Sequence record: MG748548
From: Escherichia phage EP335
Strand: one strand, 5' to 3'
DNA length: 64,000 nt
In this document: positions 25,955-41,131 of the stretch, piece after piece
Layout of the letters: every line of letters starts with the position of its first letter
How positions within the stretch are numbered: the stretch's first letter is position 1
Position numbers and translations under genes: made by a program
The notes under the pieces: generated by a model
Databases searched by the model: none
What the model was told of the DNA's origin: nothing
What the model saw: the letters and a program-made list of their open reading frames with translations, nothing else

Positions 25955-26146
25955 TCACTCTGCCATTTGAGGAATCTCTAGATGCTTTATAGAGAAACTT
26001 TTATTTGGGAAAGTCTTTATTAGCCAAGCTGCTTCTTGGATAGCTTTGTTTTCTTTCTCGTAAATACAAAGCCTAGCATCCAAGGAAACAATTCTCCCGG
26101 TTTCACTGACGACTACCCATGTTTTATATGTGTAAGTAGGTGTCAT
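25955..26146 (-). CDS. Hypothetical protein
   Basis: 63-aa ORF. Confidence 0.4.
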   Translation of the reverse strand: MTPTYTYKTWVVVSETGRIVSLDARLCIYEKENKAIQEAAWLIKTFPNKSFSIKHLEIPQMAE

Positions 26147-26518
26147 TTATTTCTCCAACACTGAGATACTGTACCAATTGTGTAAGGTTTTTCTAACCCA
26201 AGCAATGCGTTTAGGGTTTTTGTGATGAGAGCCTGTGTAACGTTCTCTGTGGTATGTGTCACAACCGAAAGGGTATACCGGGTCCTCAAACCCTTCGTGT
26301 TCAAACATATACGTCAGGTCATTAAAGTCTATATGTTTTGTGAAGAAGTAATAGCTTTTATAACAACGGTAGTTGAAACACAAACCGTGCTCAGGACTGA
26401 ACCATTTTGGGTATTCGTCTGTCTGAGAGATGTTATAATACTGGAGGAGGAAATCCTCCATCCCCCTTTCTTTGGCAATACATCTTAGTGTTCGGTACAT
26501 AATGTTACTCTGCTTCAT
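26147..26518 (-). CDS. Hypothetical protein
   Basis: 123-aa ORF immediately downstream of the polymerase gene. Confidence 0.45.
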   Translation of the reverse strand: MKQSNIMYRTLRCIAKERGMEDFLLQYYNISQTDEYPKWFSPEHGLCFNYRCYKSYYFFTKHIDFNDLTYMFEHEGFEDPVYPFGCDTYHRERYTGSHHKNPKRIAWVRKTLHNWYSISVLEK

Positions 26519-26527
26519 TGTGAATTC

Positions 26528-28375
26528 TCAGTGTGTGTGATTCCAGTTTAATCCAATCTGACAATCAGATGCCAGAGGGCATTCCATCTTGAGATACTCA
26601 CCAGCTTTCTTAACACAAAGCTCTGTAAGTTCTTTTAGTTTTTGTGCATCATTACGGTGAACAGAGAACTGCCCTTCATCGTGCATGTCAATAACCTTCG
26701 CACAACGAACACTATCACGCTCAATCCACTTGTTAAGGAAAAGCATGGCATACTTCATAACAATCGCACCAGCACTCTGTAAGAGTGTATTCAGTGCTTT
26801 ATGAACCATAACCTTACCTGTTGCGTCACGTCTCATTGTAATACGACGACCATCAACACCCAAGATATAACCTTGAGCTGCTTTCTCTGTCATACGCTCA
26901 ATAAGAATTGCAATACAAGGATTCTCTGCCAAGAAACGTGTTCTCATTACTGAACCTTCTTCAGAGCCTCCACCAACAATAGAACCAAGCTTAGCATCAC
27001 CTGCTCCGTAGTTGAACGCATAGATAAACGTCTTAGCGTTGTCACGAGTAGGAAGACCAGCAAGTCTCTGGTTGTGGGAGTGGATATCACCTTCTAATAG
27101 AATGTCACGATACATAACAGCAGAAGCTAAACCACGTTCAGCTAATGCTTTCTTACCAGCGTTACCTTCTGCAATTGCTTCAGCAAGCATGTCTCTACAC
27201 TCTTTAATGAGGTAGTGAGCAAGCATACGAAGTTCTAATCCAGAACCATCATAACCTAGGAAGAGTTCTCTACCAGCTGGTACATAATACTTATACAGCC
27301 CTACTGGTTTGTCTTTCTTTCCGGGTTTTCCACGTTCGTAGATAACGTTTGTATTTTTTCGTAAGTAACACCCATCAGGGATATTGTTGGTAATGATGAA
27401 AGGATAGTTATGACTATCATCTGTGGAGTAGTTAGATTGAAATAAACTCCTACACTCGTGACCAAACAGACCGCGAGAAGGAATATTAACAACAATGCGA
27501 TGTTTAAAACGAAATGTCGGAGTAGCGCAGCTATTAGCTTCCGCTGAGAGTTTACCATCTGGACGTTCCTTATCAATCAGTCCATTAATCAAGCCTAGTC
27601 TGTGAGCCGCTACAACACGTCTCTTAAGCAGACTTCCCACTTTACCTAGATCACCCTCAAGACCTTCTTCAAGAGTCTCTTCGAGGTTTGTAGGAGCTGT
27701 GGGCCACTTGTTCGAAGTAGCTAATGCTCTCTTAATTTCATCAAAGGTTACAGGTTTCTTCCTGTTAGGGTTTAAACCTAAACCAAAGACATAAGCCTTC
27801 ATGTAGTTGACAGTTTTGTGACGAAAGTGCTTATCCAAGAACTTCTTGATATCAGCATCAACCATCTGAGCTGTCTGTCGCTCTTTCTCATTGCCACGCA
27901 TCCAAGAGTTGTACCATTCTTGATACGTTCCACACTTACGCATGGCTCGCTTAATCTCAAATGTGTTCCAAGGCTTCTTAGATGTATTAAATTCTGGAGG
28001 AAGAAAACCTTCATCCATCAGTGCTTCTTTAACTCGTGCATCCTTTGATGGGTCAAAGTCAACATACTCAACACAAGTAAAAGCTCCACCAATATCTTCT
28101 CTCTTTAACCCCACTCTGTCGCAATATAATTGAGGCCACTTCTGAAGAGCACCAGTCTTCTTAAAGGGTTTCATGTAAGTAGAACCATCAACCCTCATCT
28201 TAGGTAACAGAGGAATCAGCTCTCTGTCGATGTTAACGATAATCTCTCTGAGAAGGTGAACATACCACCGTGCATTCCTCCGATTAAAGTTGACACCACT
28301 CTTCGCTTGCTTTGAAATTATATCAGCGACAGTCATCTCCGTTAAGAACGGAAGTACATCAGGGTTCTCCATCAC
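26528..28375 (-). CDS. DNA polymerase, family A (T7 gp5-like), polymerase domain only
   Basis: Motif A DGSGLELRMLAHY, motif B RDNAKTFIYAFNYGAG, motif C VIDMHDE; C-terminal half aligns by eye with the T7 gp5 C-terminus; no 3'-5' exonuclease motifs in this ORF. Confidence 0.9.
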   Translation of the reverse strand: MMENPDVLPFLTEMTVADIISKQAKSGVNFNRRNARWYVHLLREIIVNIDRELIPLLPKMRVDGSTYMKPFKKTGALQKWPQLYCDRVGLKREDIGGAFTCVEYVDFDPSKDARVKEALMDEGFLPPEFNTSKKPWNTFEIKRAMRKCGTYQEWYNSWMRGNEKERQTAQMVDADIKKFLDKHFRHKTVNYMKAYVFGLGLNPNRKKPVTFDEIKRALATSNKWPTAPTNLEETLEEGLEGDLGKVGSLLKRRVVAAHRLGLINGLIDKERPDGKLSAEANSCATPTFRFKHRIVVNIPSRGLFGHECRSLFQSNYSTDDSHNYPFIITNNIPDGCYLRKNTNVIYERGKPGKKDKPVGLYKYYVPAGRELFLGYDGSGLELRMLAHYLIKECRDMLAEAIAEGNAGKKALAERGLASAVMYRDILLEGDIHSHNQRLAGLPTRDNAKTFIYAFNYGAGDAKLGSIVGGGSEEGSVMRTRFLAENPCIAILIERMTEKAAQGYILGVDGRRITMRRDATGKVMVHKALNTLLQSAGAIVMKYAMLFLNKWIERDSVRCAKVIDMHDEGQFSVHRNDAQKLKELTELCVKKAGEYLKMECPLASDCQIGLNWNHTH

Positions 28376-28387
28376 CCTCTCCTTTTA

Positions 28388-28765
28388 TTATCGGTATAGT
28401 AAATCTGTAAACGCTTGGTTGTCTGCTATTACGTCCAAAGCCTCATCCGTGCTAGGAACTTCAGTTTCTTCCACTTGGTACGCAACCTCACGTACACGGA
28501 AAGCTCTTGCAGGAACCCTAAAGCCAGCATGTCTCTCCATAACATCTTTCTGAACCTGTGCAAGCTTCATACCCCACACTTCTTCATAAAGCTCTGGATG
28601 TTTATTACTAATAACTACATACTGACGATGTACGGACTTCGACTCTCTGACCTTAGCTAATAACTCATTAAACAAGTCTAACTCTTCTTCAGAGAGCGCA
28701 TCTACAACGTCTTCCCACTTCTCTACACAGAAGCGGTGGGCATGTCTGATAGGAAGTGACATCAT
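28388..28765 (-). CDS. Hypothetical protein
   Basis: 125-aa ORF immediately upstream of the polymerase-domain gene. Confidence 0.45.
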   Translation of the reverse strand: MMSLPIRHAHRFCVEKWEDVVDALSEEELDLFNELLAKVRESKSVHRQYVVISNKHPELYEEVWGMKLAQVQKDVMERHAGFRVPARAFRVREVAYQVEETEVPSTDEALDVIADNQAFTDLLYR

Positions 28766-29020
28766 TTACCCCTTAGGAAAAGGAAGAAGATTCTCTACTG
28801 CAACACGATAAACCTTTTCTACGTTTTTGTTTTTATAGGAGATGAACTTGCCATCAGCACCACGAAGGATTACATTAGTGCGAGCAGTCTTCGGGTTCTG
28901 GGAAATCTGACCAGCAATGATAGATGCATTAAGTGCGTTCTCAGCGTAGTTAGTAAACTTCCACTTAACAAGTTTATTGGCAATTGAATCGATAATGGTT
29001 ACAGTTTTTACGATAGACAT
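28766..29020 (-). CDS. Hypothetical protein
   Basis: 84-aa ORF. Confidence 0.45.
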   Translation of the reverse strand: MSIVKTVTIIDSIANKLVKWKFTNYAENALNASIIAGQISQNPKTARTNVILRGADGKFISYKNKNVEKVYRVAVENLLPFPKG

Positions 29021-29049
29021 AATTTCTTACCTAAGAAGTTTAATTTGGT

Positions 29050-29085
29050 TTATATAAAAGAAAAGGCCACCCAAACGGGTAGCCT
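29050..29085 (-). terminator. Rho-independent terminator (AGGCUACCC-GUUU-GGGUGGCCU then U-run)
   Basis: 9-bp stem with one G-U pair followed by UUUCUUUUAU on the - strand, just downstream of the stop at 29090. Confidence 0.6.
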
Positions 29086-29089
29086 CTGA

Positions 29090-29404
29090 TTAACTAGAGC
29101 TTAAAGCTCCTTTGCGACCGCCAGCTGATTTTCCAGCGCGATCTCCACTTTTGCCGCCAGCTGAACGATTTCCGCTGACTGTCTCAACACGTAAATTGCT
29201 TGACGCATTAGAGCCTCCTGATTTAATGGCTCGTTTGTGTCCGACATCTTTACCTTTGAGTGCAGATTTTCCAACGCGTTTTTCAACGATGCGACGTGCA
29301 CGGTGGCGCTGAGCATCTCCGCTCTTACTTCCAATTCCCGTTTCACCTCTTGCGATGGCTGTACGTCTTTCTTGTGCATAATCTCTTTTAGCCTTATCAG
29401 TCAT
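29090..29404 (-). CDS. Highly basic Gly/Ser/Arg/Lys-rich protein
   Basis: Strong RBS AAGGAG 7 nt before ATG 29404 and an upstream TAATGTATA motif; an alternative-frame ORF (29101..29379) is embedded. Confidence 0.45.
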   Translation of the reverse strand: MTDKAKRDYAQERRTAIARGETGIGSKSGDAQRHRARRIVEKRVGKSALKGKDVGHKRAIKSGGSNASSNLRVETVSGNRSAGGKSGDRAGKSAGGRKGALSSS

Positions 29405-29440
29405 TTACAACTCCTTAATATATCAGTGTACACTAAGGAG

Positions 29441-29449
29441 TATACATTA
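29441..29449 (-). promoter_or_regulatory. TAATGTATA promoter-like element upstream of the basic-protein gene
   Basis: Reverse complement of 29441-29449 is TAATGTATA, about 40 nt upstream of ATG 29404. Confidence 0.4.
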
Positions 29450-29462
29450 TGAGAGGGTAGCT

Positions 29463-30203
29463 TTAGTTGCCATCCTTCTCCATAGCTTTAACGATTGCTT
29501 TACAGAAACCAGAACGAACAATATCATCCGAGTCACCATCAACAATATCAGCGAACTCATACAGATCGTGCTCGTCAATGAACTCGGTAGCCCAAGTAAG
29601 ACCACTCTCTCGACCTTTCATATCGTGCTGGTTAGTGTCACCCATGCAGAACAGCTGGGATGTTTCACCCAAGCGAGTCATAATAGAGAATGCTTCATCT
29701 TTGGTTGTATTCTGGAACTCATCCACAATAACAATGGCATCATTGAAAGAGCGACCACGGAGATATTCCAGAGGTACGAACTCAATATTACCGTTACCAA
29801 GCTGGCATTCATAGAAACCTTTACCATACCGCTGAGTGATTACATCAACAATAGGCATTAGGTACGGTTCGAACTTATCACGAAGCCCACCCGGAAGTAG
29901 TCCAAGAGAGTTACCCATGCCAACAGAAGGTCGGCTAATGATAATCTTTTGAATCTTACCGCTCTTCAGTGCATCAATGACAGTAGAGGTGATGACGAAC
30001 GTCTTACCACAGCCCGCAGGAGCGTCTGTGAACACCACTTGTTTAGTCTTGATAGCATTGAGCAGCTCAGATTGAAACTGATTCTGAGGGACCACTGGCT
30101 TCGCTAAAACAACCTCTTCATATTCACGCTTACCCTTCTTGGTGACTAAGGCTTCACGACGTAAATCTTTACGAGACTCTCTACGGGACTGTCTACGGCT
30201 CAT
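29463..30203 (-). CDS. phoH: PhoH-like ATPase
   Basis: Walker A DAPAGCGKTF, Walker B IVIVDEFQN and overall PhoH-like layout. Confidence 0.8.
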   Translation of the reverse strand: MSRRQSRRESRKDLRREALVTKKGKREYEEVVLAKPVVPQNQFQSELLNAIKTKQVVFTDAPAGCGKTFVITSTVIDALKSGKIQKIIISRPSVGMGNSLGLLPGGLRDKFEPYLMPIVDVITQRYGKGFYECQLGNGNIEFVPLEYLRGRSFNDAIVIVDEFQNTTKDEAFSIMTRLGETSQLFCMGDTNQHDMKGRESGLTWATEFIDEHDLYEFADIVDGDSDDIVRSGFCKAIVKAMEKDGN

Positions 30204-30385
30204 TTGCGCTCTCCTAGCTCTTCGTAATTAAATACAGAGGTTCGACAATCTTTACATGTTGTTGTATAGACCCGAACATTAATGAACTTCTTGTTCTTCC
30301 CTTTGGTGGGTGAGCCTTTAGCAAGCTCACTAATAACCTTAGAACTCAGGTTTAGGTTTGTGCCCTCGCATTTAGAGCACTTCAC
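30200..30385 (-). CDS. Small zinc-ribbon protein
   Basis: Two CxxC pairs (CSKC...CKDC); GTG start overlapping the upstream stop (GTGA). Confidence 0.45.
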   Translation of the reverse strand: MKCSKCEGTNLNLSSKVISELAKGSPTKGKNKKFINVRVYTTTCKDCRTSVFNYEELGERK

Positions 30386-30548
30386 TCAGGCTCACCAACA
30401 GTAACTTCCCATACAACTTGAGAGATGATATTGTTGATCTGTTTGATTTGCTCGTGAGTCAGTTGCATGCCTTTCATTTTCCGAGAGGCATTACTTCGTG
30501 CTCTTCGCTGACGGTAGAAGTTATTCTTCTTAACAGAGTGTAAGCTAC

Positions 30549-30794
30549 TCATTTCACAAGCTCCACTTCTTCAATGCTGTACCCTTCATAATCCCACTCA
30601 TCTCCCCAATAACTCTCCTTACCTTCGAGAAGTGATTCAATAACTCGCTCACGGTGTTTATCTGGAATAGGAAGACTTTCTAAATCCTTGCGTTCAGGGG
30701 GTGATAGAAAAACTTTGACAGCATAGGAGTAATCAGAACTCCCTTCCATCTCTCCTGCAAGTTTTGTTAAGACGAAACATTTAGATGCAGTCAT
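30549..30794 (-). CDS. Hypothetical acidic protein
   Basis: 81-aa ORF. Confidence 0.4.
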   Translation of the reverse strand: MTASKCFVLTKLAGEMEGSSDYSYAVKVFLSPPERKDLESLPIPDKHRERVIESLLEGKESYWGDEWDYEGYSIEEVELVK

Positions 30795-30976
30795 TTCACA
30801 ACCTTAAACTTAAATGTTGTTGGGTGGTAGTAGTGTAACCTGTTTATTGTATGCTTAGTCTCATGATACAGGATACAAGAGTGGCACATTGAATGGTGCA
30901 AACAGGTTACTGGATTACGTTTGAAATTGGCAATAAGCTTCCGCTTGTTACAGAAGCTACATGTTTTGTGTAAGTC
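30791..30976 (-). CDS. Cys/His-rich small protein (zinc-finger-like)
   Basis: Internal ATG immediately after the ThyX-like stop; CSFC...CLHHSMCHSC. Confidence 0.4.
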   Translation of the reverse strand, partial: DLHKTCSFCNKRKLIANFKRNPVTCLHHSMCHSCILYHETKHTINRLHYYHPTTFKFKVVK

Positions 30977-30978
30977 CA

Positions 30979-31635
30979 TTAACTCTCCAGAGTTTTCCTT
31001 AGAGCTGACCAAGAAATTGGGTAGAGTTTAGCCATCTCTTCATCTAATGACTGAGCAAACAGTCGAACTTCATACTGAGCATGGGATGATAGTCGTTGAC
31101 GACACAATTCAAACCAGCCATACAAACTACCAGTCCATACCCACTCAGTAATCATCCCCTGAGGAAGAACAAAGCGAGCTTGCTCTGGTGCAACAAATTC
31201 AATTAATTTGTCATAGGCTGCCAGTGAAGCCTCATACGCATTATTGATTAGCATTAATGCTTCGGCTCGTTCTCCGTTGACAAGCTGTGTCCCTGAACCT
31301 GCATGGAGGTCCGAAGGTCTCGCAAAAATCTCTTTAGGGATGAAGACTTCAACTGCTCCATCTTTATACCGCCGGGACATTTCGTTCCACGAGAATCCAA
31401 CCTGATGTTTTTGTAGTTGACGAGCTATTGCAATTGGAGCTTTACATCGAAAAGATACTTGAGGGTGTCTGAACGGAGTACAGTGTTTCTCTCTGGCAAG
31501 AAAGTTGATTAATCGAGTATCACGATCATTCAAATCACCCTCTCGCACAACACCGAAAGAAACTCTTGCAGCATTAACAACTGTTTTATCACTACCCATA
31601 GCTTCAATCAATGTTGCCTTCAATTGTTCATTCAT
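30979..31635 (-). CDS. thyX: ThyX-like protein (flavin-dependent thymidylate synthase family; RHR motif replaced by KHQ)
   Basis: FRHPQVSFRC and QLQKHQVGFSWNEMSRRY align with ThyX FEHVSF and QLVRHRxxSxxxxSxRY blocks. Confidence 0.65.
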   Translation of the reverse strand: MNEQLKATLIEAMGSDKTVVNAARVSFGVVREGDLNDRDTRLINFLAREKHCTPFRHPQVSFRCKAPIAIARQLQKHQVGFSWNEMSRRYKDGAVEVFIPKEIFARPSDLHAGSGTQLVNGERAEALMLINNAYEASLAAYDKLIEFVAPEQARFVLPQGMITEWVWTGSLYGWFELCRQRLSSHAQYEVRLFAQSLDEEMAKLYPISWSALRKTLES

Positions 31636-32110
31636 ACTTCAACTTCTCCTTGTTATAAGCAATCTCTGCTTCCTCTGGAGTGTGGAAAGTTCCCAAATGT
31701 TTAGTCTTTCCGCCAACTCCGATGATAGCTCTGAATTTTGTACCACTCGCCGTCTCTCTGATATAGACACCCATTGGGAGCTTTCCAGCTTTTCCGGCTC
31801 TGTTATATTGTTTCCTGTTATGACAGTTTGTAGATGGGTCAACATCTCTTAGGTTTTTAAGAGAGTCATCCAGTTTAATCTGGTTGATATGATCAATCTC
31901 AAACTCAGGCATCTTTCCATAAGAGAAAAACCAAGCTAAACGACAAGCTCTGTAAGATTTTCCTTCGTAATAAATATACCTGTAACCTAGTGTAGAGATA
32001 CACCCAGCAATATTCCCAGCCACCCGTCTACCTTTGGTATTCTTCCACCGAAAGATTCCAGTTTCAGGGTCATAAGACAGGTCTTCTTTTATCTTGTCAG
32101 TTAATATCAA
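31628..32110 (-). CDS. HNH homing endonuclease with AP2-type DNA-binding domain
   Basis: HNH core EIDHINQIKLDDSLKNLR plus AP2-like GVYIRETASGTKFRAIIGVGGKTKHLGTFHTPEEAEIAYN. Confidence 0.75.
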   Translation of the reverse strand: MILTDKIKEDLSYDPETGIFRWKNTKGRRVAGNIAGCISTLGYRYIYYEGKSYRACRLAWFFSYGKMPEFEIDHINQIKLDDSLKNLRDVDPSTNCHNRKQYNRAGKAGKLPMGVYIRETASGTKFRAIIGVGGKTKHLGTFHTPEEAEIAYNKEKLKYE

Positions 32111-32372
32111 AAGCTGTTACCAAGAAAGATTTCAGGTTTGCTTCAGTCTGCATACCAGATAAGCTATAATGTGCACCGCTGTTACGGTTAGGTACGATGA
32201 AAGCAGGAATACTTCGTACACCGTATTCGATAGCTCGATCACGACCATTGCCTTCGAGGATGTTAACCTCTTCAACTTCTAGGTTAAGCTCTTCAGCTAA
32301 TTTGTTGAGGGTAGGGGCCATTGCTTTGCAAGGAGCACACTGATTACTATAAAACTTAATAACTTTATTCAT
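32097..32372 (-). CDS. Thioredoxin
   Basis: Active-site CAPC in the expected position of an ~90-aa thioredoxin fold. Confidence 0.7.
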   Translation of the reverse strand: MNKVIKFYSNQCAPCKAMAPTLNKLAEELNLEVEEVNILEGNGRDRAIEYGVRSIPAFIVPNRNSGAHYSLSGMQTEANLKSFLVTAFDIN

Positions 32373-32552
32373 TCACTCTTCCCATTTACAAACAGCTCAA
32401 GATGTCGCTTGGTAGTGGGGACTACGATATAGTCCTTGTAGCCATGAGACTTAGCAAGCTCTTCTGCTATCTTTTTGGTAGCACCTAATGCTACTACACA
32501 TCGGCACACGATGATTGTGTGCGCTTTGTATTCATCTTTGTTCATAAAAACC

Positions 32553-32738
32553 TTAAGCAGTGATCAGGTGGAGGATAAACGGGATGACTACAGAGATGAT
32601 AACCCAAGCAACAGATGCGATTTGAATTTCAGCTTTCTTGTCAGGAGTTTCTTCAATAAGTTTCTTGCTACCATAATAAACACCTCCGCCAATGAGAAGT
32701 GCCCAAATACTCCAAATGATTGCTGATAACATATTCAA
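32553..32738 (-). CDS. Small membrane protein with two TM segments (holin-like topology)
   Basis: Two hydrophobic helices separated by a charged loop. Confidence 0.4.
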   Translation of the reverse strand: MNMLSAIIWSIWALLIGGGVYYGSKKLIEETPDKKAEIQIASVAWVIISVVIPFILHLITA

Positions 32739-32790
32739 TTCCTTATAAATAAGTTCGCCCTACCTCGGATTAGGAGACAGGGCGGAGGTT

Positions 32791-33378
32791 TTAGTATGAG
32801 ACGTCACTAGAGTGTGACATGTTACTTTTAACGAAGTAGCAATACTTGCCTAACCCTTCGTTGATTTCTTGGAGCATGCTCTGGTCAACTGGATACTCGC
32901 TCAAACATCCATCGAACTCATCCATTTTGTCAATCATGCACATTAAAGACATGCACATATCAGAGAGCATACCATCCATATCTAGGTCTGCATTTCCTTC
33001 AGAGAACCAAGAGTGTGATAGGTAGTTAGAAGCAGTTGCATCCACCTTAATACAGTGGAAACGCATACGTTCAGCTATCCGATCACCTGTCTCACGAGCA
33101 TAATCTTCAAGCTCATCAAACATTCCATGAACACCCTGAAATCCTGCACCAGATACGTTCCAGTGATAATTCTTAGCTTTGATATGCAAGAGTTCTAAAT
33201 TAGCTTGAATACCGCATAGAATGTGTTCTAGGCTGTTTCCACTAATCATCCCTTGCATACGCTCTAAACGGGAGATAGAAGAGTCTGTTTCACGTAATAC
33301 ATCACGGAAAGAAGTCTCTTTTGTTAGAGTTGGTAGGTCGAAAACATTGTGATTAGGCATTAGGATTCTCTCCATCAA
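32791..33378 (-). CDS. Dps/ferritin-like protein
   Basis: NYHWNVSGAGFQGVHGMFDELEDYARETGDRIAERM matches the Dps ferroxidase-centre region (HWN..G..F...H..F.E...........AER). Confidence 0.6.
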   Translation of the reverse strand: MMERILMPNHNVFDLPTLTKETSFRDVLRETDSSISRLERMQGMISGNSLEHILCGIQANLELLHIKAKNYHWNVSGAGFQGVHGMFDELEDYARETGDRIAERMRFHCIKVDATASNYLSHSWFSEGNADLDMDGMLSDMCMSLMCMIDKMDEFDGCLSEYPVDQSMLQEINEGLGKYCYFVKSNMSHSSDVSY

Positions 33379-33682
33379 GTTCTACTGAGTTCGCAACATT
33401 GCGTGTAATGTTATCCATTACCTGTTGGGTGATAACGATGCAGTTCTGTGGGTCAACCGACTTAGAACGTCCCATCTCAGGGTCATACACTTTAACGCGC
33501 TTTGCTGTAGAACCAGTTACCTGTAACACCTTGAGAAGATAACCCTGATTCCCGATAGACCATGCAACAACATCACGATTCTTGATGAATCGACCAAGCA
33601 TATCACGATGATAGAACTGCTGCATAACCTTTGATTTATTAATCTCTTCGGCTGGCGGAGCCACTTTACTCAAATCTAACAT
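33353..33682 (-). CDS. Hypothetical protein
   Basis: 109-aa ORF; AAATGTATATA motif 40 nt upstream. Confidence 0.45.
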   Translation of the reverse strand: MLDLSKVAPPAEEINKSKVMQQFYHRDMLGRFIKNRDVVAWSIGNQGYLLKVLQVTGSTAKRVKVYDPEMGRSKSVDPQNCIVITQQVMDNITRNVANSVELDGENPNA

Positions 33683-33754
33683 TTCACTCTCTCCTGTTCA
33701 ATACAATATTCTTATACTGTATATACATTTGAGAGTGATCATATCTACTACCAA

Positions 33755-33961
33755 CTAGTAGAAAACTGCTTTGGATATAAAAGAGCCAGTATTAGGGTCC
33801 TCATGCCATCGATGCATAGTGACTTTTGAGATAACCTTGCAAGCTTTCAAGTTTTTCTTGGTGAGACGAGCTTCTTCTCTGGTGTTGAATAACTTGATGG
33901 TATCTTTACCCACACGCTCTTCTACTCTCCACACTATTCGTATAGCCCACATCTTTTTCAT
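33755..33961 (-). CDS. Small protein, member 1 of a tandem paralog triplet
   Basis: MKKMWAIRIVWRVEE..., similar in length and pattern to the next two genes. Confidence 0.45.
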   Translation of the reverse strand: MKKMWAIRIVWRVEERVGKDTIKLFNTREEARLTKKNLKACKVISKVTMHRWHEDPNTGSFISKAVFY

Positions 33962-34176
33962 TAGTAATGTACCTTTCCGCTGATATAAATACGGCCTGAG
34001 GTATACTCATAGCCCTTGAGGATTTTGACAGAGGAAACACTATTCATCCCACTGAGAGATTTCTTAAGATTACGTGAACCCTCTCGTGTTTTCTGATAGG
34101 TCATGGTTGTATTACCATTATCCCACTCTATCTTAACTATCCAAATTCTTTTCATAAGACCTGCTCTCTTTACCAT
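33961..34176 (-). CDS. Small protein, member 2 of the tandem paralog triplet
   Basis: MVKRAGLMKRIWIVKIEWDNG...; stop/start coupled to neighbours. Confidence 0.45.
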   Translation of the reverse strand: MVKRAGLMKRIWIVKIEWDNGNTTMTYQKTREGSRNLKKSLSGMNSVSSVKILKGYEYTSGRIYISGKVHY

Positions 34177-34373
34177 TAGTAGTACACCTTGCTATTGGCG
34201 AAAAAAGCACCTTCGCTATTCACAATAGCTTTTCCTAATGTAACCTTGTTAAGTCTAAAAGTAGACTTGTATTGATTTTTGACCCTACGTGCGTGATCTC
34301 GAGTCTTAACAAAATCTACAGCTACCAAGTCTCCAGTCATGTTATCATGTACACGAACAATCCACTTTTTCAT
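34176..34373 (-). CDS. Small protein, member 3 of the tandem paralog triplet
   Basis: MKKWIVRVHDNMTGDLVAVDF...; ends in YY like member 1. Confidence 0.45.
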   Translation of the reverse strand: MKKWIVRVHDNMTGDLVAVDFVKTRDHARRVKNQYKSTFRLNKVTLGKAIVNSEGAFFANSKVYY

Positions 34374-34907
34374 TTACACACCCTTAGAAGCAACAACACC
34401 TTCGCTACCATTGTAGCGACCTTTAACTGCATAGGAATGCTCACCAGCATGTGAATGCTCAAACATCACCATCTGACCGACACGCATACCAGCACGAACC
34501 CGTAAGCTGTGGTGCTTGGTTACGTTATGGAACTCAAATGTCAGCTTGCTATTGTTAAACCCAGCGTCTGCCCAACCAGCGTGCAAGTGGTTCAAGCCAC
34601 AACGAGCCATTGAAGATCGTAGAACAAACAAGCTGGAGATGTTATCTGGGAGGTTGAACTCTTCCATTGAGTGAGCCAAGAAGAATTGTCCCGGAGTGAT
34701 GATAATGCCATCTTCAGGGATTTTTACTTCTTTCCACTTGAGGTTTTCTTTCGCATCAATGTCAACAATCCCATCAGCCTGTTCTTCAATAAGGATAGTA
34801 TCACCAACACGGATATCCACACTAGCAGCGTTAACATACTTATGCTCCGCATCCAGAAAACCGTTGTCGATAACGTCGTGTAATTCCATGCTTCCTAATA
34901 AACTCAT
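34374..34907 (-). CDS. dcd: dCTP deaminase (dUTPase-fold)
   Basis: SVDIRVGD, PGQFFLAHSMEEFNLPDN, RSSMARCGL and AGWADAGF align with E. coli Dcd TVDVRLG, PGELALAVTLESVTLPAD, RSSLARLGL, PGWSG. Confidence 0.8.
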   Translation of the reverse strand: MSLLGSMELHDVIDNGFLDAEHKYVNAASVDIRVGDTILIEEQADGIVDIDAKENLKWKEVKIPEDGIIITPGQFFLAHSMEEFNLPDNISSLFVLRSSMARCGLNHLHAGWADAGFNNSKLTFEFHNVTKHHSLRVRAGMRVGQMVMFEHSHAGEHSYAVKGRYNGSEGVVASKGV

Positions 34908-34921
34908 TCTTATTCCTTATG

Positions 34922-36202
34922 TTAATCTGCGATACTGTCGCTTTCGTCCATCCAGACTGGACTGTTAACCTGTCCTAGACGACGAGCTGATGTTTCGTTA
35001 ATAGAGTTAACCCCTGCTGTGCGAGGGTTTGTGTACCACGGTCGAGCTATGGTGCCCTCTCGAATCACTTGGTTCGTTTCGACATGCCATCTGTTTGATA
35101 CCGTGTTGGCTCCGAAGTTACCACCCGCCCCACCACTAACAGGTACAGCTTGAGCTGGTTGGTTTACTCGGTTAGTTCCTGCCCCAAAGGCTGCTGCAAA
35201 TTCAGACACACGTGCATCAAATGAAGAACGAACACGCTGAGTAGGTGATATATCATTTCGTGTATCTACTGCACGAGGCATAGCCCAAGTATCATCTGTT
35301 GAGATATCAGGGGTAGGCTCTTGCTCTAGAGGTTGAAGATTAGCTGTCCATTGACTATTCAGTATACGATAGAAATCTGCACCATAACCACTTCGGATAA
35401 CATCCTCTCTGACACCAAAGAAGCGACTGATATCCCCACCGATTCGGGCTAGTTTGTCATTGTATGCAGGTATGATTATTCCACCCTCTGTCACTAAATC
35501 AGAGACACGACTTGTTGTAAGTGGTGAAGTGATCCAACAATAATAATCAGTAATGTGACCATCGTATCCGAAGAATGCAATCTCTGCATCAGGCCATTTC
35601 TTGTGGACATATGCCACTTCACGGTTAGAACAAACAGGGATTGCACCTGTTTCAGTCATTGCATAGAAGCCGTCAGAAGAGAACCAAAGTGAATCTAGTG
35701 CTAAGAATCCACGACACACGCTCGGGAAAGTAGCAGCCAGCGCCCCAAGTGAGGTAGGTTCATTGAACATTAACTGAATCTTTGCACCCTGATAATTAAT
35801 CTCTAGGATATCTACAAAATTCAAAGAAGACCCAGGGGCATATTGATTATTACTTCGTCCAATATCCTGCTCAATGAGAAGAGATCTTGTTTCAACACCA
35901 TGAGCCTCTGCCCACTCTTTGAAATCTTCAAGGAACAAGCGAGCCTTAGCTCGCCACATCGACCGATCAATTACAGACTGTCTCGGCAATCCACCCTCTG
36001 TAGTGATGAGAAAGATATCAATGTCGTGAGGTTCACGCGTCTGAAAGATTGCATCCCTAACAGCACCACCTGCAATGATAGGGTACACACCATCAGGGAT
36101 TAAACGGTTTGCAATCAACTCGTTAATTAACGTAAGACCAGACACAAGCTGCGGACTATCATCAATCCGTCGACGAATTAGTGCATTAGGGATATTATAC
36201 AT
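34922..36202 (-). CDS. Pol-beta superfamily nucleotidyltransferase (CCA-adding-enzyme-like head domain) with long Gly/Asn-rich C-terminal region
   Basis: IIAGGAVRDAIFQTREPHDIDIFLI matches the GG-x-R-D ... D-x-D nucleotidyltransferase motif of class II CCA-adding / poly(A) polymerase enzymes. Confidence 0.55.
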   Translation of the reverse strand: MYNIPNALIRRRIDDSPQLVSGLTLINELIANRLIPDGVYPIIAGGAVRDAIFQTREPHDIDIFLITTEGGLPRQSVIDRSMWRAKARLFLEDFKEWAEAHGVETRSLLIEQDIGRSNNQYAPGSSLNFVDILEINYQGAKIQLMFNEPTSLGALAATFPSVCRGFLALDSLWFSSDGFYAMTETGAIPVCSNREVAYVHKKWPDAEIAFFGYDGHITDYYCWITSPLTTSRVSDLVTEGGIIIPAYNDKLARIGGDISRFFGVREDVIRSGYGADFYRILNSQWTANLQPLEQEPTPDISTDDTWAMPRAVDTRNDISPTQRVRSSFDARVSEFAAAFGAGTNRVNQPAQAVPVSGGAGGNFGANTVSNRWHVETNQVIREGTIARPWYTNPRTAGVNSINETSARRLGQVNSPVWMDESDSIAD

Positions 36203-36751
36203 TTACATTTTCCAATATAAAGATGGGGGGTCATTTGGGTCAAAGTTTGCAATATGACAAAGATATTTATAAACCTTAACCGTTAAGTTTACGTCCTGTT
36301 CACAATAAGTAAACATGTCCTCTGTAAAGGCATCCCATGCTTCTTCCTGTTCACCGTAATCGCCCTTAAGCTCTTCTAAGAACTCACCCCATTGCTTTAA
36401 GCCATGACCTCTTGGGCCATGTCTAGGGTCGCCTTTCGGATACTCAGGACTGTCACCAATACGGTCAGGTTTAAGATACCGACTCAGACATAAAGTGTCT
36501 AGGACGTTGAATTTGTATTTGATTAATTTCGGATATACTTTCTTCAGAGCTGGAAGGTCGAAGTCAATAATATTATGACCTACAACAATATCAGCCTCTG
36601 TAAGTTTCTTGATACCCTCTTCAATCTGGTGAGGACGAAATCCCCACCGTTCACCAGTTGCTATATCGAAGATAAAGATACACCATACGTTTGTGATATT
36701 GTCGTACAGTGCATCACTCTCAATATCAAATGCGTAGACTTTCTTTACCAC
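36203..36751 (-). CDS. DNA polymerase family A, 3'-5' exonuclease domain (T7 gp5 N-terminal-like), separate gene
   Basis: Exo I AFDIESD, Exo [13 protein letters not shown], Exo [12 protein letters not shown]; [11 protein letters not shown] and [19 protein letters not shown] resemble T7 gp5 N-terminal blocks; stop after ~182 aa. Confidence 0.85.
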
Positions 36752-38535
36752 GGGCTTTTCTCTCCATCTTGAGCAAGAAGTGATGCTGCATCCTCTCCAT
36801 TTGTCAGCGAGAATGGATTTTCTTCATCAATTTCATGATCTTCACGCTCAAGCAACCGTCCCGTCTCTCCTACATACTTCGTATAGCACACCCCTGTTTG
36901 TCCATAGTTACGCTCTTTGAGGAGTCGTATAATGGATAGGTTCTTAGCCAGACCATCTGCTTGTTTGTCACGTTCAAAACCGATGATACATTGACACCAA
37001 CGCATAAGAGAACGAGAACCAGTAAACTGTACCTCTCGAACCTGACCACCTTCTTCATGAGGTGCACCACCTGCCGGAGCATTAAGATGAGATAGCACGA
37101 ATGCTGTGAAGTTTAATTCTTGACACATACCAGCAAGCTCTGAAGCAATCTTACTGATTTCAGTGTTAATCTCTGAAGGTGTTAAATGGGATACCAGAGC
37201 GGTAATGTTATCAAGGATGATAAACTTACACTGGTTTTCAACAACCCAGAAACGGATACACTGTTTAATGTCGGCCCATTCATTCTGACCAAAGTTATCA
37301 TAGAGGAAGAATTTATCTGCATATCGAAGAGCTTCGTTACGCAATGTATCTTCATCATACTCAACATCAGGTCTGTGGAAAGGAATAGATGCTGACTTAC
37401 CTGCAATATTCTTAACGGACATTCCGACCTTCTCTTCCAAGAAGAATCCACCACCATTAAAACCATGCTCAAGACAAAGCCAAGCAACCAGTTCATGTGC
37501 AATCAATGTTTTACCAGAGCCTACACCTCCACCAATTGCTACCATCTCTCCCCAACGAATACCGTAGGTCATCTCATTAAGAGTCTTCCACGGATATGGG
37601 ATACCCCACTCTGCTTTCTTCAGAGCATCATCTAAGCAATCAAAAACAGTTACAGCACCAGCTGGGGATTCCCGCTTCGCTGAATATTTAAGAATGTTAA
37701 ACAACTCCTGACCACGACCAGAGAGGAGCATATCATTCGCATCTTTAAGCTCTTTCTCAACACCGTTGTACTGGAAAGAACCTTTAGGAATACGAGCAAA
37801 CTTCACATGGGGGAACAGAGCACGCCCTTTGGTAAGAGCAATCTCACCAGCATCATCGTTGTCCATACAGAGAACAACCTCTTCAAAACCATTCAAGAAC
37901 TCACGGTTGCGAGATAAAACGGAAGAGATTGACCCTGCACCGAAGGGTAAAGAGACGCACGCTGGTTTAATATTTGTTGCATTTGTAAAAGCTGTAAGAA
38001 CATGGAAACCAGACATGCAAGACAAAGGGTCTTCAAAGATGAAGAGCTTCTTATTGTACACATCTCCACGTTTAGCCTGTGCCATACCAAACAAATCAGC
38101 TTCTTTCACACTACCGATGTAATAAAACTTTTTACTATCAAGTAGTTTAACCTCATAACCAACAATGTTTCCATCACGTTCACGAGGGAAGAAGTAACTG
38201 TCTGGTGTCTGACCATCAGTTTGACTGAGACCGATACGACATTCAAAACGCTCTGATACAGCTTTAGGGATTAATCGACGAGTGAGTTCTCCTTGAGGTA
38301 ACTCCAAGCAATCATCCAAGACTTCTCGAAGTTCTTCAGGGGACAGCTCTTTCTTTTCGTTTGGTGTAGGTGTCGTGCCTTTCTCAAAGACTTCGTAATT
38401 ACCACACCGGTTACAACTACCCCACTCTTCACCGGATTCCTCATTACGGAAGAGAATCATGTGATTGTGGGTTTTATCACGACCATGAGAGATGCACTCT
38501 TTACAGCCTGTATCTCCCAAAATGATCTTTGACAT
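36745..38535 (-). CDS. Primase-helicase (T7 gp4-like)
   Basis: N-terminal zinc-binding Cys cluster, [15 protein letters not shown], DnaB-family Walker [10 protein letters not shown]. Confidence 0.9.
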
Positions 38536-38572
38536 GCTCTATCCTCCTTGGATTCTCCTTGAGCAAACTACC

Positions 38573-38782
38573 TTACTTATAAAAACTTCGAATCATGTCC
38601 CAGATTTCTTCCTGCTGGACCCTAAAGAAAGCTAAACGTGTCGATGTACGTTCAATAAATTCTTCACTATGCTTTTCTCTATCTAGCATACTGACAAGCT
38701 TTTCATATTTATTGATCTTCCATCGCATTTTTAAATAGTCTGATTCCAGTGTCCTTAACCTCTGACACTCAATCAAACCCAT
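38573..38782 (-). CDS. Hypothetical protein
   Basis: 69-aa ORF. Confidence 0.4.
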   Translation of the reverse strand: MGLIECQRLRTLESDYLKMRWKINKYEKLVSMLDREKHSEEFIERTSTRLAFFRVQQEEIWDMIRSFYK

Positions 38783-39201
38783 TAGTTATCCTCTGACAGA
38801 TAAAGAGACCAGTCACCAGATTCAACCAGCTCATCCTGCTCTTCATCGATGTGATAAATCCAAGCAGTGATAGTTTCACCACTATCCATTACAACTTCGA
38901 TAGGAGTACGCTTATAGAAAGTGTGTGGGTTGTCATTACCGCGATGCCCTTCCAGCATATCATAAGCACCCTCAACACCATCCATATCCGTCTTAAATAC
39001 TTCAACACGAACAGGTTTACCGTTGCTGTTGTGTTCCAGAGAAACACTTGGGAAGTATGAACCACCGTAGCGGTACAAGTTGTAGTTTTCTTTAGTGAAG
39101 CCTTCACCAATTGATTCAGCACCTGCACGAGCATTCACTCGGAAGTTGGCCTGACCAGTGCGAAGAGAACCGTAAGTTGCTACATAAATTACTTCTGACA
39201 T
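38782..39201 (-). CDS. Gamma-glutamyl cyclotransferase-like (AIG2/GGCT family) protein
   Basis: N-terminal VATYGSLRTGQ (YGSL motif) and downstream AYDMLEG with conserved Glu. Confidence 0.6.
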   Translation of the reverse strand: MSEVIYVATYGSLRTGQANFRVNARAGAESIGEGFTKENYNLYRYGGSYFPSVSLEHNSNGKPVRVEVFKTDMDGVEGAYDMLEGHRGNDNPHTFYKRTPIEVVMDSGETITAWIYHIDEEQDELVESGDWSLYLSEDN

Positions 39202-39913: not shown

Positions 39914-41131
39914 TTAAAAGTTTACTGCTTCACCATCAACGGTAGTTACTGATGCAAGACGACGAACACGGCCAATCTGTTCACGACTGATTGGAGTATT
40001 CCAACCAGAGCGATAGAAGTTGCGACCACAGAAGAACACAACAACATTAGAAGCAATCCGTCCGTAGTTACGATCAGGGTGATTGATGTTAGCAAGATAA
40101 TAACCACGGGTCAAGTTTGCATTTTCGTTGATATGCCGAGCATTTGGTGCAGTTGTTTCAGCTTGCATCATTTCAGGAACATCTTCTACGATAGGCTCAA
40201 CCGTAGGTTCATCACCAGCTAAAGCAAAGTTCTCATCAGCAGCCTCTTCTGCATCATCTTCCAGCTCCACAGTTTCCTGAATAACTGGCAGAGGGTATGC
40301 TACACGATACTCAGGGTTTTGACCACGGAGAGATTCAACATACTGCAAGAAGTTGTGCTGGTAAGTTTCCAGAGTTGTACCAGTCAGGCCCGGAGCGGTA
40401 TTAACTTCTAACACCCACGCTTCCTCACCTTTACTGATAAGATCAACAGCACCAAAGTTAAGACCGAGTGCTTGTACTGCTTTGTGCGCTTGAATTAGAA
40501 CCTGATCAGGTGGTGAATCATTAAAAGAGTTGGAATAAACCCAACCAGTGTGGTGATTACGAACATCTTCACGATAGTCAGGGTTATCACGATACCCATT
40601 ACGACGAATCTTCTTCTGGACGTAAGTAATAACACCTTCAAAAACATGCACACGCCATTCACGACGTGGACCAGTGATTGCTTTTGTATACAGAGGAGCC
40701 TCAGCAACACCCTCACGAGGAAGACGAACAGTGATGCCTTCACCAGAGTGACCATTAAGTACACCACGTTCGTAAACAATACTGTTTTGGTTCCAGTTAA
40801 GTGCTTCATCTCGGTTAGTGGTATACTCAACAGTCTTGACTTCCGCAAGACGCATGGCATTGAAAGCTGCAACCTTGTTAGCCGCACGATTCAATGCTGC
40901 TACGTTGTTCAGAACCGTTGCACCTTCGAAGAAGGATTCTTGATAACGACGGTTTCCATAGTTGATAATCACGTCACCAGAACGAGCACGGAATCGGCTG
41001 GTTCCATCAGACAGAAGAGCCATTGCGTTGGCATTGATTCGGTTGTCACGGAGATGTTGATTCAAGCTGGATACCAGAGCATTAACAGAATCAGAAGGGC
41101 CATAAGGGAGAACACGGATACGAGTAGTCAT
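39914..41131 (-). CDS. ATP-grasp domain ligase
   Basis: WVLEVNTAPGL matches the ATP-grasp E-x-N-x-x-PG loop; 405 aa. Confidence 0.7.
   Translation of the reverse strand: MTTRIRVLPYGPSDSVNALVSSLNQHLRDNRINANAMALLSDGTSRFRARSGDVIINYGNRRYQESFFEGATVLNNVAALNRAANKVAAFNAMRLAEVKTVEYTTNRDEALNWNQNSIVYERGVLNGHSGEGITVRLPREGVAEAPLYTKAITGPRREWRVHVFEGVITYVQKKIRRNGYRDNPDYREDVRNHHTGWVYSNSFNDSPPDQVLIQAHKAVQALGLNFGAVDLISKGEEAWVLEVNTAPGLTGTTLETYQHNFLQYVESLRGQNPEYRVAYPLPVIQETVELEDDAEEAADENFALAGDEPTVEPIVEDVPEMMQAETTAPNARHINENANLTRGYYLANINHPDRNYGRIASNVVVFFCGRNFYRSGWNTPISREQIGRVRRLASVTTVDGEAVNF

What the first reader, a model, noticed from the sequence alone, without database searches (positions are those of the whole stretch)
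32097..32372. Phage-encoded thioredoxin inside the split-polymerase region
T7 DNA polymerase uses host thioredoxin as its processivity factor. Here a T7-family polymerase coexists with a phage-encoded CAPC thioredoxin located between its two halves. This may be a dedicated processivity subunit, which would make replication independent of host trxA, or a redox partner for the ThyX-like and Dps-like proteins nearby.
Basis: inference. Interest (0 to 1): 0.45.

Follow-up and report, generated by a model that had tools for sequence, protein, structure and literature searches.

The report
Phage mini-thioredoxin, already annotated
The gene is a real, conserved, shortened thioredoxin of phiEco32-type coliphages that has been annotated since 2008; the idea that it clamps the phage DNA polymerase was published in 2021 and stays possible, but the evidence here leans towards an ordinary redox role.

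Summary
Window 32097-32372 (- strand) encodes a 91-aa thioredoxin with a CAPC motif (Pfam PF00085, E=2e-13). It lies between the exonuclease and polymerase genes of a split T7-clade DNA polymerase. The window is a phiEco32-like Kuravirus, and the gene is the ortholog of phi32_65, "thiol-disulfide isomerase and thioredoxin". The processivity idea was already proposed for these C3 podophages (PeerJ 2021). The polymerase has a 52-aa insert exactly where T7 has its 76-aa thioredoxin-binding loop; Klenow has none. However, the insert's similarity to the T7 loop is marginal (59 of 2000 shuffles score as well). It lacks the T7 basic loop, and AlphaFold2 predicts it ordered without a partner. It is equally conserved in LUZ24-like phages, which have no thioredoxin gene. 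Both cysteines and the cis-proline are kept in every homolog compared, and dN/dS is 0.09-0.20. The closest relatives outside this group sit in unrelated large phages, one beside a flavin reductase gene. The best reading is a redox-active mini-thioredoxin supporting nucleotide supply; a polymerase-subunit role has a probability of about 0.25. It is already known and of modest interest.

The parts
32097..32372 (-). Mini-thioredoxin gene (91 aa, ortholog of phiEco32 phi32_65). It lacks the N-terminal b1-a1 of E. coli TrxA.
32328..32339 (-). Codons for the CAPC active-site motif (residues 12-15); TGT GCT CCT TGC on the - strand.
   Evidence: read directly; both Cys and the Pro invariant, both Cys kept in every sequence
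26528..28375 (-). DNA polymerase subunit (615 aa) of the T7 clade of family A, without an exonuclease domain.
28052..28207 (-). Thumb insert (Pol residues 57-108) between helix H (32-56) and helix H1 (112-121). It occupies the position of the T7 thioredoxin-binding loop.
36203..36751 (-). Separate 3'-5' exonuclease subunit of the polymerase (182 aa).
36745..38535 (-). Primase-helicase (596 aa) with an acidic C-terminal tail ending ...DGEKSPW.
32791..33378 (-). Dps/ferritin-like protein (195 aa) in the same module as trx.
33353..33682 (-). orf109 (phrog_10984), directly upstream of the Dps-like gene in all five loci where that gene was found.
32369..32545 (-). orf58 (phrog_19504). Its stop overlaps the trx start codon (ATGA). 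It is absent from Bas89 and phiEco32.
31628..32110 (-). HNH endonuclease inserted between trx and thyX; it overlaps the trx 3' end by 14 nt.
30979..31635 (-). ThyX flavin-dependent thymidylate synthase.
34374..34907 (-). dCTP deaminase, at the upstream end of the nucleotide-metabolism block that contains trx.

Best explanation
The gene encodes a redox-active, N-terminally shortened thioredoxin. It is expressed with the middle (replication and nucleotide-metabolism) genes of a phiEco32-like phage.

Shown:
- It has a thioredoxin fold, with a CAPC dithiol at the start of helix 1 and the cis-Pro loop (RSIP).
- It is under purifying selection and is a core gene of the C3 podophages.
- The SU10 ortholog is made as protein.

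Inferred:
- It is kept reduced by a host reductase and passes electrons to a client disulfide.
- The most likely client is ribonucleotide reductase. That would be the host NrdAB in Kuravirus, which has no RNR of its own, and the phage RNR in relatives that carry one. The effect would be to raise dNTP supply for replication, as with T4 NrdC and as proposed for cyanophage Syn5 TrxA.

A thiol-redox function of some kind has a probability of about 0.65. The specific RNR client has a probability of about 0.4.
For: - Both cysteines and the cis-Pro are kept in all 17 aligned homologs, where the CxPC proline is also invariant. The cysteines and cis-Pro are also kept in Privateer, 7-11, GAP52, ECO319P1, PKM.Hi.22.6, an IMG/VR relative, Aeromonas 4_4572 and TacPo2, down to about 33-40% identity. 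A purely structural phage-owned subunit would be free to lose the cysteines.
- dN/dS is 0.09-0.20.
- The gene always lies in the dCTP deaminase ... ThyX nucleotide block.
- In Aeromonas phage 4_4572 the mini-thioredoxin sits among the nrdA/nrdB genes. Privateer carries NrdAB.
- The closest relatives outside the C3 phages (P0009, P0013; 42-45% identity, same MNKVIKF start) are in large phages. The P0013 contigs carry a Gp23-type capsid gene, and there the thioredoxin lies next to a Flavodoxin_2/FMN reductase gene. No T7-type polymerase gene lies within the roughly 5-10 kb read on either side.
- Precedent: Syn5 TrxA is redox-active, raises phage DNA replication, and AlphaFold3 does not dock it onto the polymerase.
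Against: - The window has no RNR (tblastn with Privateer NrdA/NrdB found nothing at E<=1), so the client would have to be a host enzyme. E. coli already has TrxA and glutaredoxins.
- The active-site region is atypical. Trp31 is lost in all C3-phage sequences, Asp26 is replaced by Lys throughout, and Gly33 becomes Ala.
- The protein scores 49.9 bits against the 96.8-bit cut-off of the TIGR01068 thioredoxin equivalog.
- The thioredoxin is present whether the phage has an aerobic RNR or none, so it does not track a phage RNR.
- No redox assay exists for this protein.
Confidence: 0.4

Rival explanations
1. Dedicated processivity subunit. The phage thioredoxin binds the thumb insert of the phage polymerase, as E. 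coli TrxA binds the T7 gp5 loop. It would tether the polymerase to DNA independently of redox chemistry and free the phage from host trxA.
For: - The polymerase belongs to the T7 clade.
- A 52-aa insert lies exactly between helices H and H1, where T7 has its loop and Klenow has none.
- The C-terminal flank GGAFTCVEYVDFDPS aligns with T7 AGAPYTPVEHVVFNPS.
- The thioredoxin is a core gene of all C3 phages whether or not they own an RNR, and lies in the replication module. In TacPo2 it also lies between exo and pol.
- The model superposes on TrxA, including chain 1t7p_B.
- The hypothesis was published for this phage group.
Against: - The insert has the same length (49-58 aa, median 52) and the same invariant residues in 70 homologs, including LUZ24-like phages. 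The complete HMGUpa2 genome has no thioredoxin-fold ORF.
- The insert-only profile scores 3.3 bits on the T7 loop, and 59 of 2000 shuffles do as well.
- The 21-aa basic loop B of T7 is missing, and the net charge is +2 against +7.
- AlphaFold2 predicts the insert ordered (pLDDT about 88-92) without a partner.
- The cysteines are kept in every homolog compared.
- Relatives of the mini-thioredoxin occur in unrelated large phages.
- For S-SBP1-type split polymerases with a half-size loop, AlphaFold2 did not dock thioredoxin.
Confidence: 0.25
2. Thiol and oxidative-stress module. The thioredoxin works with the Dps-like ferritin-fold protein and its partner orf109 to protect replicating phage DNA, or to control iron and peroxide. 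One possible source is peroxide from ThyX side reactions, or a shift in host thiol balance caused by the phage gamma-glutamyl cyclotransferase.
For: - Trx, orf109 and the Dps-like gene lie within about 1.6 kb in the window, Bas89, phiEco32 and Privateer, although their order differs.
- SU10 authors list Trx, the Dps-like protein and CDS68 among the few middle genes shared by all five C3 phages.
- The Dps-like protein matches the Dps core HW..G..F..H..F.E...D.IAER (the ferroxidase residue assignment is from memory).
- The Privateer paper files the thioredoxin under stress response.
Against: - Adjacency is not conserved. In Aeromonas 4_4572 the orf109-Dps pair stays together while the thioredoxin lies 20 kb away beside RNR genes. 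The IMG/VR relative L012 has trx and orf109 but no detectable Dps-like gene within the locus read, and TacPo2 has trx but neither orf109 nor a Dps-like gene.
- No thioredoxin dependence of Dps proteins is established (background knowledge).
Confidence: 0.2
3. Reductant for ThyX.
For: trx and thyX are neighbours in Kuravirus. They are adjacent in Bas89 and phiEco32, and separated only by an inserted HNH gene in the window.
Against: - ThyX is reduced by NAD(P)H through its own FAD and has no catalytic disulfide (established biochemistry, not tested here).
- In Privateer, 7-11 and GAP52 the annotated genes flanking trx are dCTP deaminase, PhoH or the orf109 homolog, not thyX.
Confidence: 0.03

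Closest known systems
phiEco32 gp65 (phi32_65, YP_001671810, 'thiol-disulfide isomerase and thioredoxin') and its orthologs in Kuravirus and Grimontviridae
   Same: Ortholog: 76% identity, 91 aa, CAPC, and the same place between the Dps-like gene and thyX. The Bas89 ortholog is 95.6% identical.
   Different: The window carries an extra HNH gene and an extra orf58 flanking trx.
E. coli TrxA as processivity factor of T7 gp5 (PDB 1T7P)
   Same: Same fold (TM 0.8, 31-33% identity). R73, I75, cis-P76 and G92 equivalents are kept. The polymerase is of the T7 clade, with an insert at the site of the thioredoxin-binding loop.
   Different: The thioredoxin is phage-encoded and lacks b1-a1. It has W31->Q, G33->A, D26->K and G74->S. 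The insert is 52 aa rather than 76, has no basic loop B, shows only marginal sequence similarity and is predicted ordered. Binding has not been tested.
Phage-encoded redoxins serving ribonucleotide reduction (T4 NrdC; cyanophage Syn5 TrxA)
   Same: A small phage CxxC protein in the nucleotide and replication module. Syn5 TrxA is redox-active and raises DNA replication.
   Different: Those phages encode their own RNR. This window has none.
S-SBP1-type split T7-like polymerases with a half-size thioredoxin-binding loop (Czernecki et al. 2023)
   Same: The exo and pol domains are on separate genes, and the loop at the thioredoxin-binding site is shortened by about 30 aa.
   Different: Here exo and pol are 7.8 kb apart rather than adjacent. 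The lineage is different, and it also carries a phage thioredoxin gene.
Archaeal mini-thioredoxins (MJ0307 and MTH895 families)
   Same: Length of about 80-90 aa and a thioredoxin core without the N-terminal extension. There are weak matches to TIGR00411 and TIGR00412.
   Different: Scores are far below the cut-offs (27.5 against 92.75; 24 against 62). The protein is closer to gamma-proteobacterial TrxA by sequence and fold.

Membership tests
Thioredoxin domain family (Pfam PF00085) | Profile score above the curated cut-off | tested here: met
   50.5 bits against a cut-off of 23.5, E=2.2e-13
Thioredoxin domain family (Pfam PF00085) | CxxC at the N-terminus of the first core helix, plus the cis-Pro loop | tested here: met
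   C12-A-P-C15 precedes helix 13-28. RSIP56 aligns with E. coli RGIP76. C12, P14, C15 and P56 are invariant in the 17-sequence alignment, and both cysteines and the cis-Pro are kept in all further homologs compared.
Thioredoxin domain family (Pfam PF00085) | Thioredoxin fold | tested here: met
   The AlphaFold2 model has pLDDT 93 and a b-a-b-a-b-b-a topology. Foldseek against TrxA structures gives TM 0.8 and rmsd 1.5-1.8 A.
Canonical thioredoxin TrxA (NCBIfam TIGR01068 equivalog) | Score above the equivalog cut-off; WCGPC motif, buried Asp26 and the N-terminal b1-a1 | tested here: not met
   49.9 bits against a cut-off of 96.8. The motif is NQCAPC, Lys stands at the Asp26 position, and the protein starts at strand b2.
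Canonical thioredoxin TrxA (NCBIfam TIGR01068 equivalog) | Disulfide reductase activity, recycled by thioredoxin reductase | not testable with these tools
   Needs an enzyme assay.
T7-type polymerase-thioredoxin processivity pair | Family A polymerase of the T7 clade | tested here: met
   phmmer against T7 gp5 gives E=2e-31. Foldseek gives E~1e-25, ahead of Bst/Klenow/Taq.
T7-type polymerase-thioredoxin processivity pair | Insertion between thumb helices H and H1 | tested here: met
   The window has 52 aa (residues 57-108), T7 has about 70-76 aa and Klenow has none.
T7-type polymerase-thioredoxin processivity pair | The insertion is homologous to the T7 thioredoxin-binding loop | tested here: inconclusive
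   Only the last 17 residues or so align. The insert-only profile scores 3.3 bits, and 59 of 2000 shuffles score as well.
T7-type polymerase-thioredoxin processivity pair | Basic loops that bind the helicase and SSB acidic tails | tested here: not met
   The 21-aa T7 loop B is absent, and the net charge is +2 against +7.
T7-type polymerase-thioredoxin processivity pair | The insert and the thioredoxin gene occur together across relatives | tested here: not met
   LUZ24-like HMGUpa2 has the insert but no thioredoxin ORF anywhere in its genome. Mini-thioredoxin relatives occur in large phages with no such polymerase gene nearby.
T7-type polymerase-thioredoxin processivity pair | Physical 1:1 complex and a gain in processivity | not testable with these tools
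Phage redoxin partner of ribonucleotide reductase (T4 NrdC type) | The phage encodes an RNR, usually near the redoxin gene | tested here: not met
   The window has no RNR. The feature is met in relatives: 4_4572 has trx among the nrd genes, and Privateer carries NrdAB.

The most novel reading that the evidence does not exclude
The C3-podophage mini-thioredoxin (CAPC, without Trp31 or Asp26) is a phage-owned polymerase subunit. It would dock on the conserved 52-aa thumb insert of the split T7-clade polymerase and give processivity independently of host trxA. It would be the first virus-encoded thioredoxin clamp. In Kuravirus a natural cysteine (Pol C101, in FTCVEY) lies in the segment that aligns with T7 YTPVEH, and might allow a mixed disulfide with the thioredoxin. 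The proximity of the T7 residues to the thioredoxin active site is my recollection and is unverified.
Probability: 0.2. Interest if true: 0.6.

Novelty: already known. Interest (0 to 1): 0.25.

Why it matters
If the phage thioredoxin were a polymerase subunit, it would show that the T7 trick of using thioredoxin as a clamp has been taken into a phage genome. It would also give a compact, host-independent processive polymerase for biotechnology. If the protein is a redox enzyme, it is one more auxiliary gene that boosts nucleotide supply. That role is only now being tested for phage thioredoxins, in cyanophage Syn5. Either answer needs a simple experiment. The sequence evidence alone does not make the case surprising.

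Tried and rejected
- Complex prediction. I built a fused Trx-(GGGGS)6-Pol(1-270) alignment with 7 genome-paired rows plus unpaired rows. The tool would in any case return no coordinates or PAE.
- IMG/VR scan with the polymerase alignment. Of the 80 loci kept, only 3 were full-length relatives, so it gave no useful co-occurrence table. One of them (L012) added a further Trx-Pol pair.
- Small ORFs directly upstream of pol in Aeromonas 4_4572 and TacPo2. I checked whether they were thioredoxins and they are not. The real mini-thioredoxins of those phages lie elsewhere.
- Richardson-laboratory papers on the gp5-thioredoxin interface. They are not held in the library, so interface residues could not be checked against a source.
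- Literature on Kuravirus growth on trxA mutants. None was found.
- Covariation between Trx active-site variants and the insert, across the 7 pairs. There is no visible pattern and there are too few pairs.
- Virion component. Rejected, because the SU10 proteomics used a lysate that was not CsCl-purified.

Full report
**What the window is.**
- Megablast of 26000-39000 finds 121 phage records. The best are Escherichia phages KBNP1711 (93% identity) and KarlSchell_Bas89 (94.6%), followed by phiEco32 and many other Kuravirus genomes at about 82%.
- The annotated records show the same gene order as the window: primase-helicase, polymerase exonuclease subunit, nucleotidyltransferase, dCTP deaminase, small genes, Dps-like protein, small gene, thioredoxin, ThyX, PhoH, small genes, polymerase.

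**The observation.**
- The ORF 32097..32372 (- strand) encodes 91 aa beginning MNKVIKFYSNQCAPCKAM.
- It matches Pfam Thioredoxin at E=2.2e-13, above the curated cut-off, and PHROG phrog_22 'thioredoxin domain'.
- It is the ortholog of phiEco32 phi32_65, annotated 'thiol-disulfide isomerase and thioredoxin' (76% identity).
- The AlphaFold2 model (pLDDT 93.1) is a minimal b-a-b-a-b-b-a thioredoxin core. Its best structural matches are gamma-proteobacterial and E. coli TrxA (TM 0.8, rmsd 1.5-1.8 A, 31-33% identity). They include the thioredoxin chain of the T7 polymerase complex, 1t7p_B.
- dN/dS against phiEco32 and Bas89 is 0.09-0.20.
- The SU10 ortholog was seen by mass spectrometry at 52.8% coverage, in a lysate that had not been CsCl-purified.
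- The gene is therefore real and expressed. The split polymerase is also real, with pol at 26528..28375 and exo at 36203..36751.
- 'Between the halves' means only that trx is one of 20 ORFs in the 7.8 kb that separate them.

**Prior knowledge.**
- The SU10 paper lists the thioredoxin among the few middle genes shared by all five C3-morphotype phages.
- A 2026 preprint on cyanophage Syn5 tested a phage thioredoxin for the first time. It found redox activity and a replication benefit, and AlphaFold3 did not dock the protein on the polymerase. The authors favour activation of ribonucleotide reductase.
- I found no experiment on Kuravirus and trxA.

- T7 gp5 is the closest solved relative of the polymerase by sequence (E=2e-31) and by fold (E~1e-25, against ~1e-16 for Bst, Klenow and Taq).
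- In alignments with T7 gp5 and E. coli Klenow, Klenow runs straight from helix H (...KKAHEIAGE) into EFNLSS. T7 carries its loop of about 70-76 aa there. The window polymerase carries 52 aa (residues 57-108).
- In the AlphaFold2 model (pLDDT 91.9) the insert lies between helix 32-56 and helix 112-121. It forms a strand (60-67), a helix (79-88) and a strand (99-105), with pLDDT of about 88-92.

**Why the insertion does not decide the question.**
- Across 70 homologs (40-100% identity) the insert keeps a length of 49-58 aa. F71, G75, F99 and F107 are invariant, and P70, G97, P98 and D108 are nearly so. That set includes LUZ24-like Pseudomonas phages.
- A profile search of every stop-to-stop ORF of the complete HMGUpa2 genome found no thioredoxin-fold ORF; the best E-value was 3.1. 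The same search recovered the mini-thioredoxins of the window, Bas89, phiEco32, Privateer, Aeromonas 4_4572 and TacPo2. A repeat over all fetched loci also recovered that of an IMG/VR relative.
- A profile of the insert alone scores 3.3 bits on T7 residues 256-340, and 59 of 2000 shuffles score as well. Only REYVAGAPYTPVEHVVF aligns.
- The 21-residue basic loop of T7 (GIFKKPKNKAQREGREPCELD) is absent. The net charge is +2 against +7.
- The helicase of this phage does end in an acidic tail with a terminal aromatic residue (...DGEKSPW), as T7 gp4 does (from memory). The conserved insert may therefore be a docking site for replisome partners rather than for thioredoxin; this is inference.
- Czernecki et al. 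reported that only about 29% of T7-like polymerases have a loop of 50 aa or more. They also reported that a split polymerase with a half-size loop was not docked to host thioredoxins by AlphaFold2.

**The thioredoxin itself.**
- tblastn finds it in 119 phage records. As far as the organism and host summary and the 60 listed records show, all are C3 podophages: Kuravirus at 72-96% identity, and the Proteus, Salmonella 7-11-like and Cronobacter groups at 33-40%.
- All of them start at the strand equivalent to b2 of TrxA.
- All keep both cysteines, the cis-Pro and the Gly92 equivalent. All have Lys at the Asp26 position.
- All C3-phage sequences lack Trp31. The motif is CAPC, or CSPC in Privateer.
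- The protein misses the TIGR01068 equivalog cut-off (49.9 against 96.8 bits).
- Keeping the dithiol over this depth of divergence is what a redox enzyme would show. [quoted passage not shown] A phage-owned clamp could therefore have lost the cysteines in some lineage.
- This argument is not conclusive, because the same surface binds gp5.

**Context in relatives.**
- In Privateer and the IMG/VR relative L012 the order is dCTP deaminase, trx, orf109 (followed by the Dps-like gene in Privateer). In Kuravirus it is orf109, Dps-like gene, small ORF(s), trx, thyX.
- In Aeromonas 4_4572 the orf109-Dps pair stays together, but the mini-thioredoxin (WCVNC) sits next to nrdA and nrdB.
- In TacPo2 it lies between exo and pol.
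- Privateer has NrdAB. The window has no RNR, in line with the Privateer paper's remark that Kuravirus lacks most nucleotide-synthesis genes.
- The nearest relatives outside the C3 phages (P0009 and P0013; WCGPC, 42-45% identity) are on contigs of up to 113 kb from large phages. The P0013 contigs carry a Gp23-type capsid gene, and P0013 lies beside a Flavodoxin_2/FMN reductase gene. No T7-type polymerase gene lies within the roughly 5-10 kb read on either side.
- The mini-thioredoxin is thus a mobile phage gene found in redox and nucleotide contexts. It is not a companion of one polymerase type.

**Verdict.**
- Most likely, the gene is a redox-active mini-thioredoxin that supports DNA precursor supply. 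The electron acceptor is most plausibly the host NrdAB in this phage (about 0.4 for that client, about 0.65 for a redox role of some kind).
- The processivity-subunit model keeps a probability of about 0.25. The polymerase does have a conserved insert at the right place, and the gene is kept even where no phage RNR exists.
- A Dps-linked protective role has a probability of about 0.2.
- A ThyX partnership is unlikely from known ThyX chemistry.
- The gene and the hypothesis are both in the literature, so the finding is already known.
- A complex prediction could not be run. That prediction and the simple genetics listed under next steps would settle the matter.

Noticed in passing
window 31628-32110 (-): An HNH_3 endonuclease ORF (160 aa) is inserted between trx and thyX and overlaps the trx 3' end by 14 nt. 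Bas89 and phiEco32 have no gene at this spot. The ES17 and YW01 records also list an HNH or homing endonuclease beside trx, so this looks like a recurrent homing site.
   Followed up: partly
window 32369-32545 (-): orf58 (phrog_19504) has no counterpart in Bas89 or phiEco32. Its stop codon overlaps the trx ATG (ATGA), which suggests translational coupling.
   Followed up: partly
window 26528-28375 (-) against L001 1164-3788: The window polymerase gene is uninterrupted. The 99.3%-identical Bas89 gene is annotated as joined from two pieces around an endonuclease ORF, which is an intron or intein-like insertion.
   Followed up: no
window 32097-32372 against KBNP1711 and Bas89: KBNP1711 covers more of the 13-kb query than any other record (89% at 93.1% identity), but its thioredoxin is only 73% identical. 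The Bas89 thioredoxin is 95.6% identical. This indicates local mosaicism in the module.
   Followed up: no
window 33353-33682 and 32791-33378 (-): orf109 (phrog_10984, unknown function) lies immediately upstream of, and overlaps, the Dps-like gene in the window, Bas89, phiEco32, Privateer and Aeromonas 4_4572. The two are probably a functional pair.
   Followed up: partly
window 36745-38535 (-), C-terminus: The primase-helicase ends in an acidic tail with a terminal tryptophan (...[16 protein letters not shown]). This resembles the T7 gp4 tail that docks on the polymerase; the T7 comparison is from memory.
   Followed up: no
L092 10001-11060; L095 5394-5678: The closest mini-thioredoxin relatives outside the C3 phages (WCGPC, same MNKVIKF start) lie in large phages. 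The P0013 contigs (L092-L094) carry a Gp23-type capsid gene, and there the thioredoxin is directly followed by a Flavodoxin_2/FMN reductase gene.
   Followed up: partly
L005 28041-28271: Aeromonas phage 4_4572 has an unannotated 76-aa mini-thioredoxin (WCVNC) between the nrdA/Dam genes and an NrdA.1-like gene. TacPo2 has one (MCGPC) at L006 15261-15497. Both are recorded as hypothetical proteins.
   Followed up: partly
window 38782-39201, 39914-41131, 41583-43466 (-): A gamma-glutamyl cyclotransferase, a RimK-like ATP-grasp enzyme and a glutamine amidotransferase form a conserved upstream block (annotated in Bas89, Privateer and Aeromonas 4_4572). If the cyclotransferase degrades glutathione, it could shift the cell towards dependence on thioredoxin. 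This is speculation.
   Followed up: no
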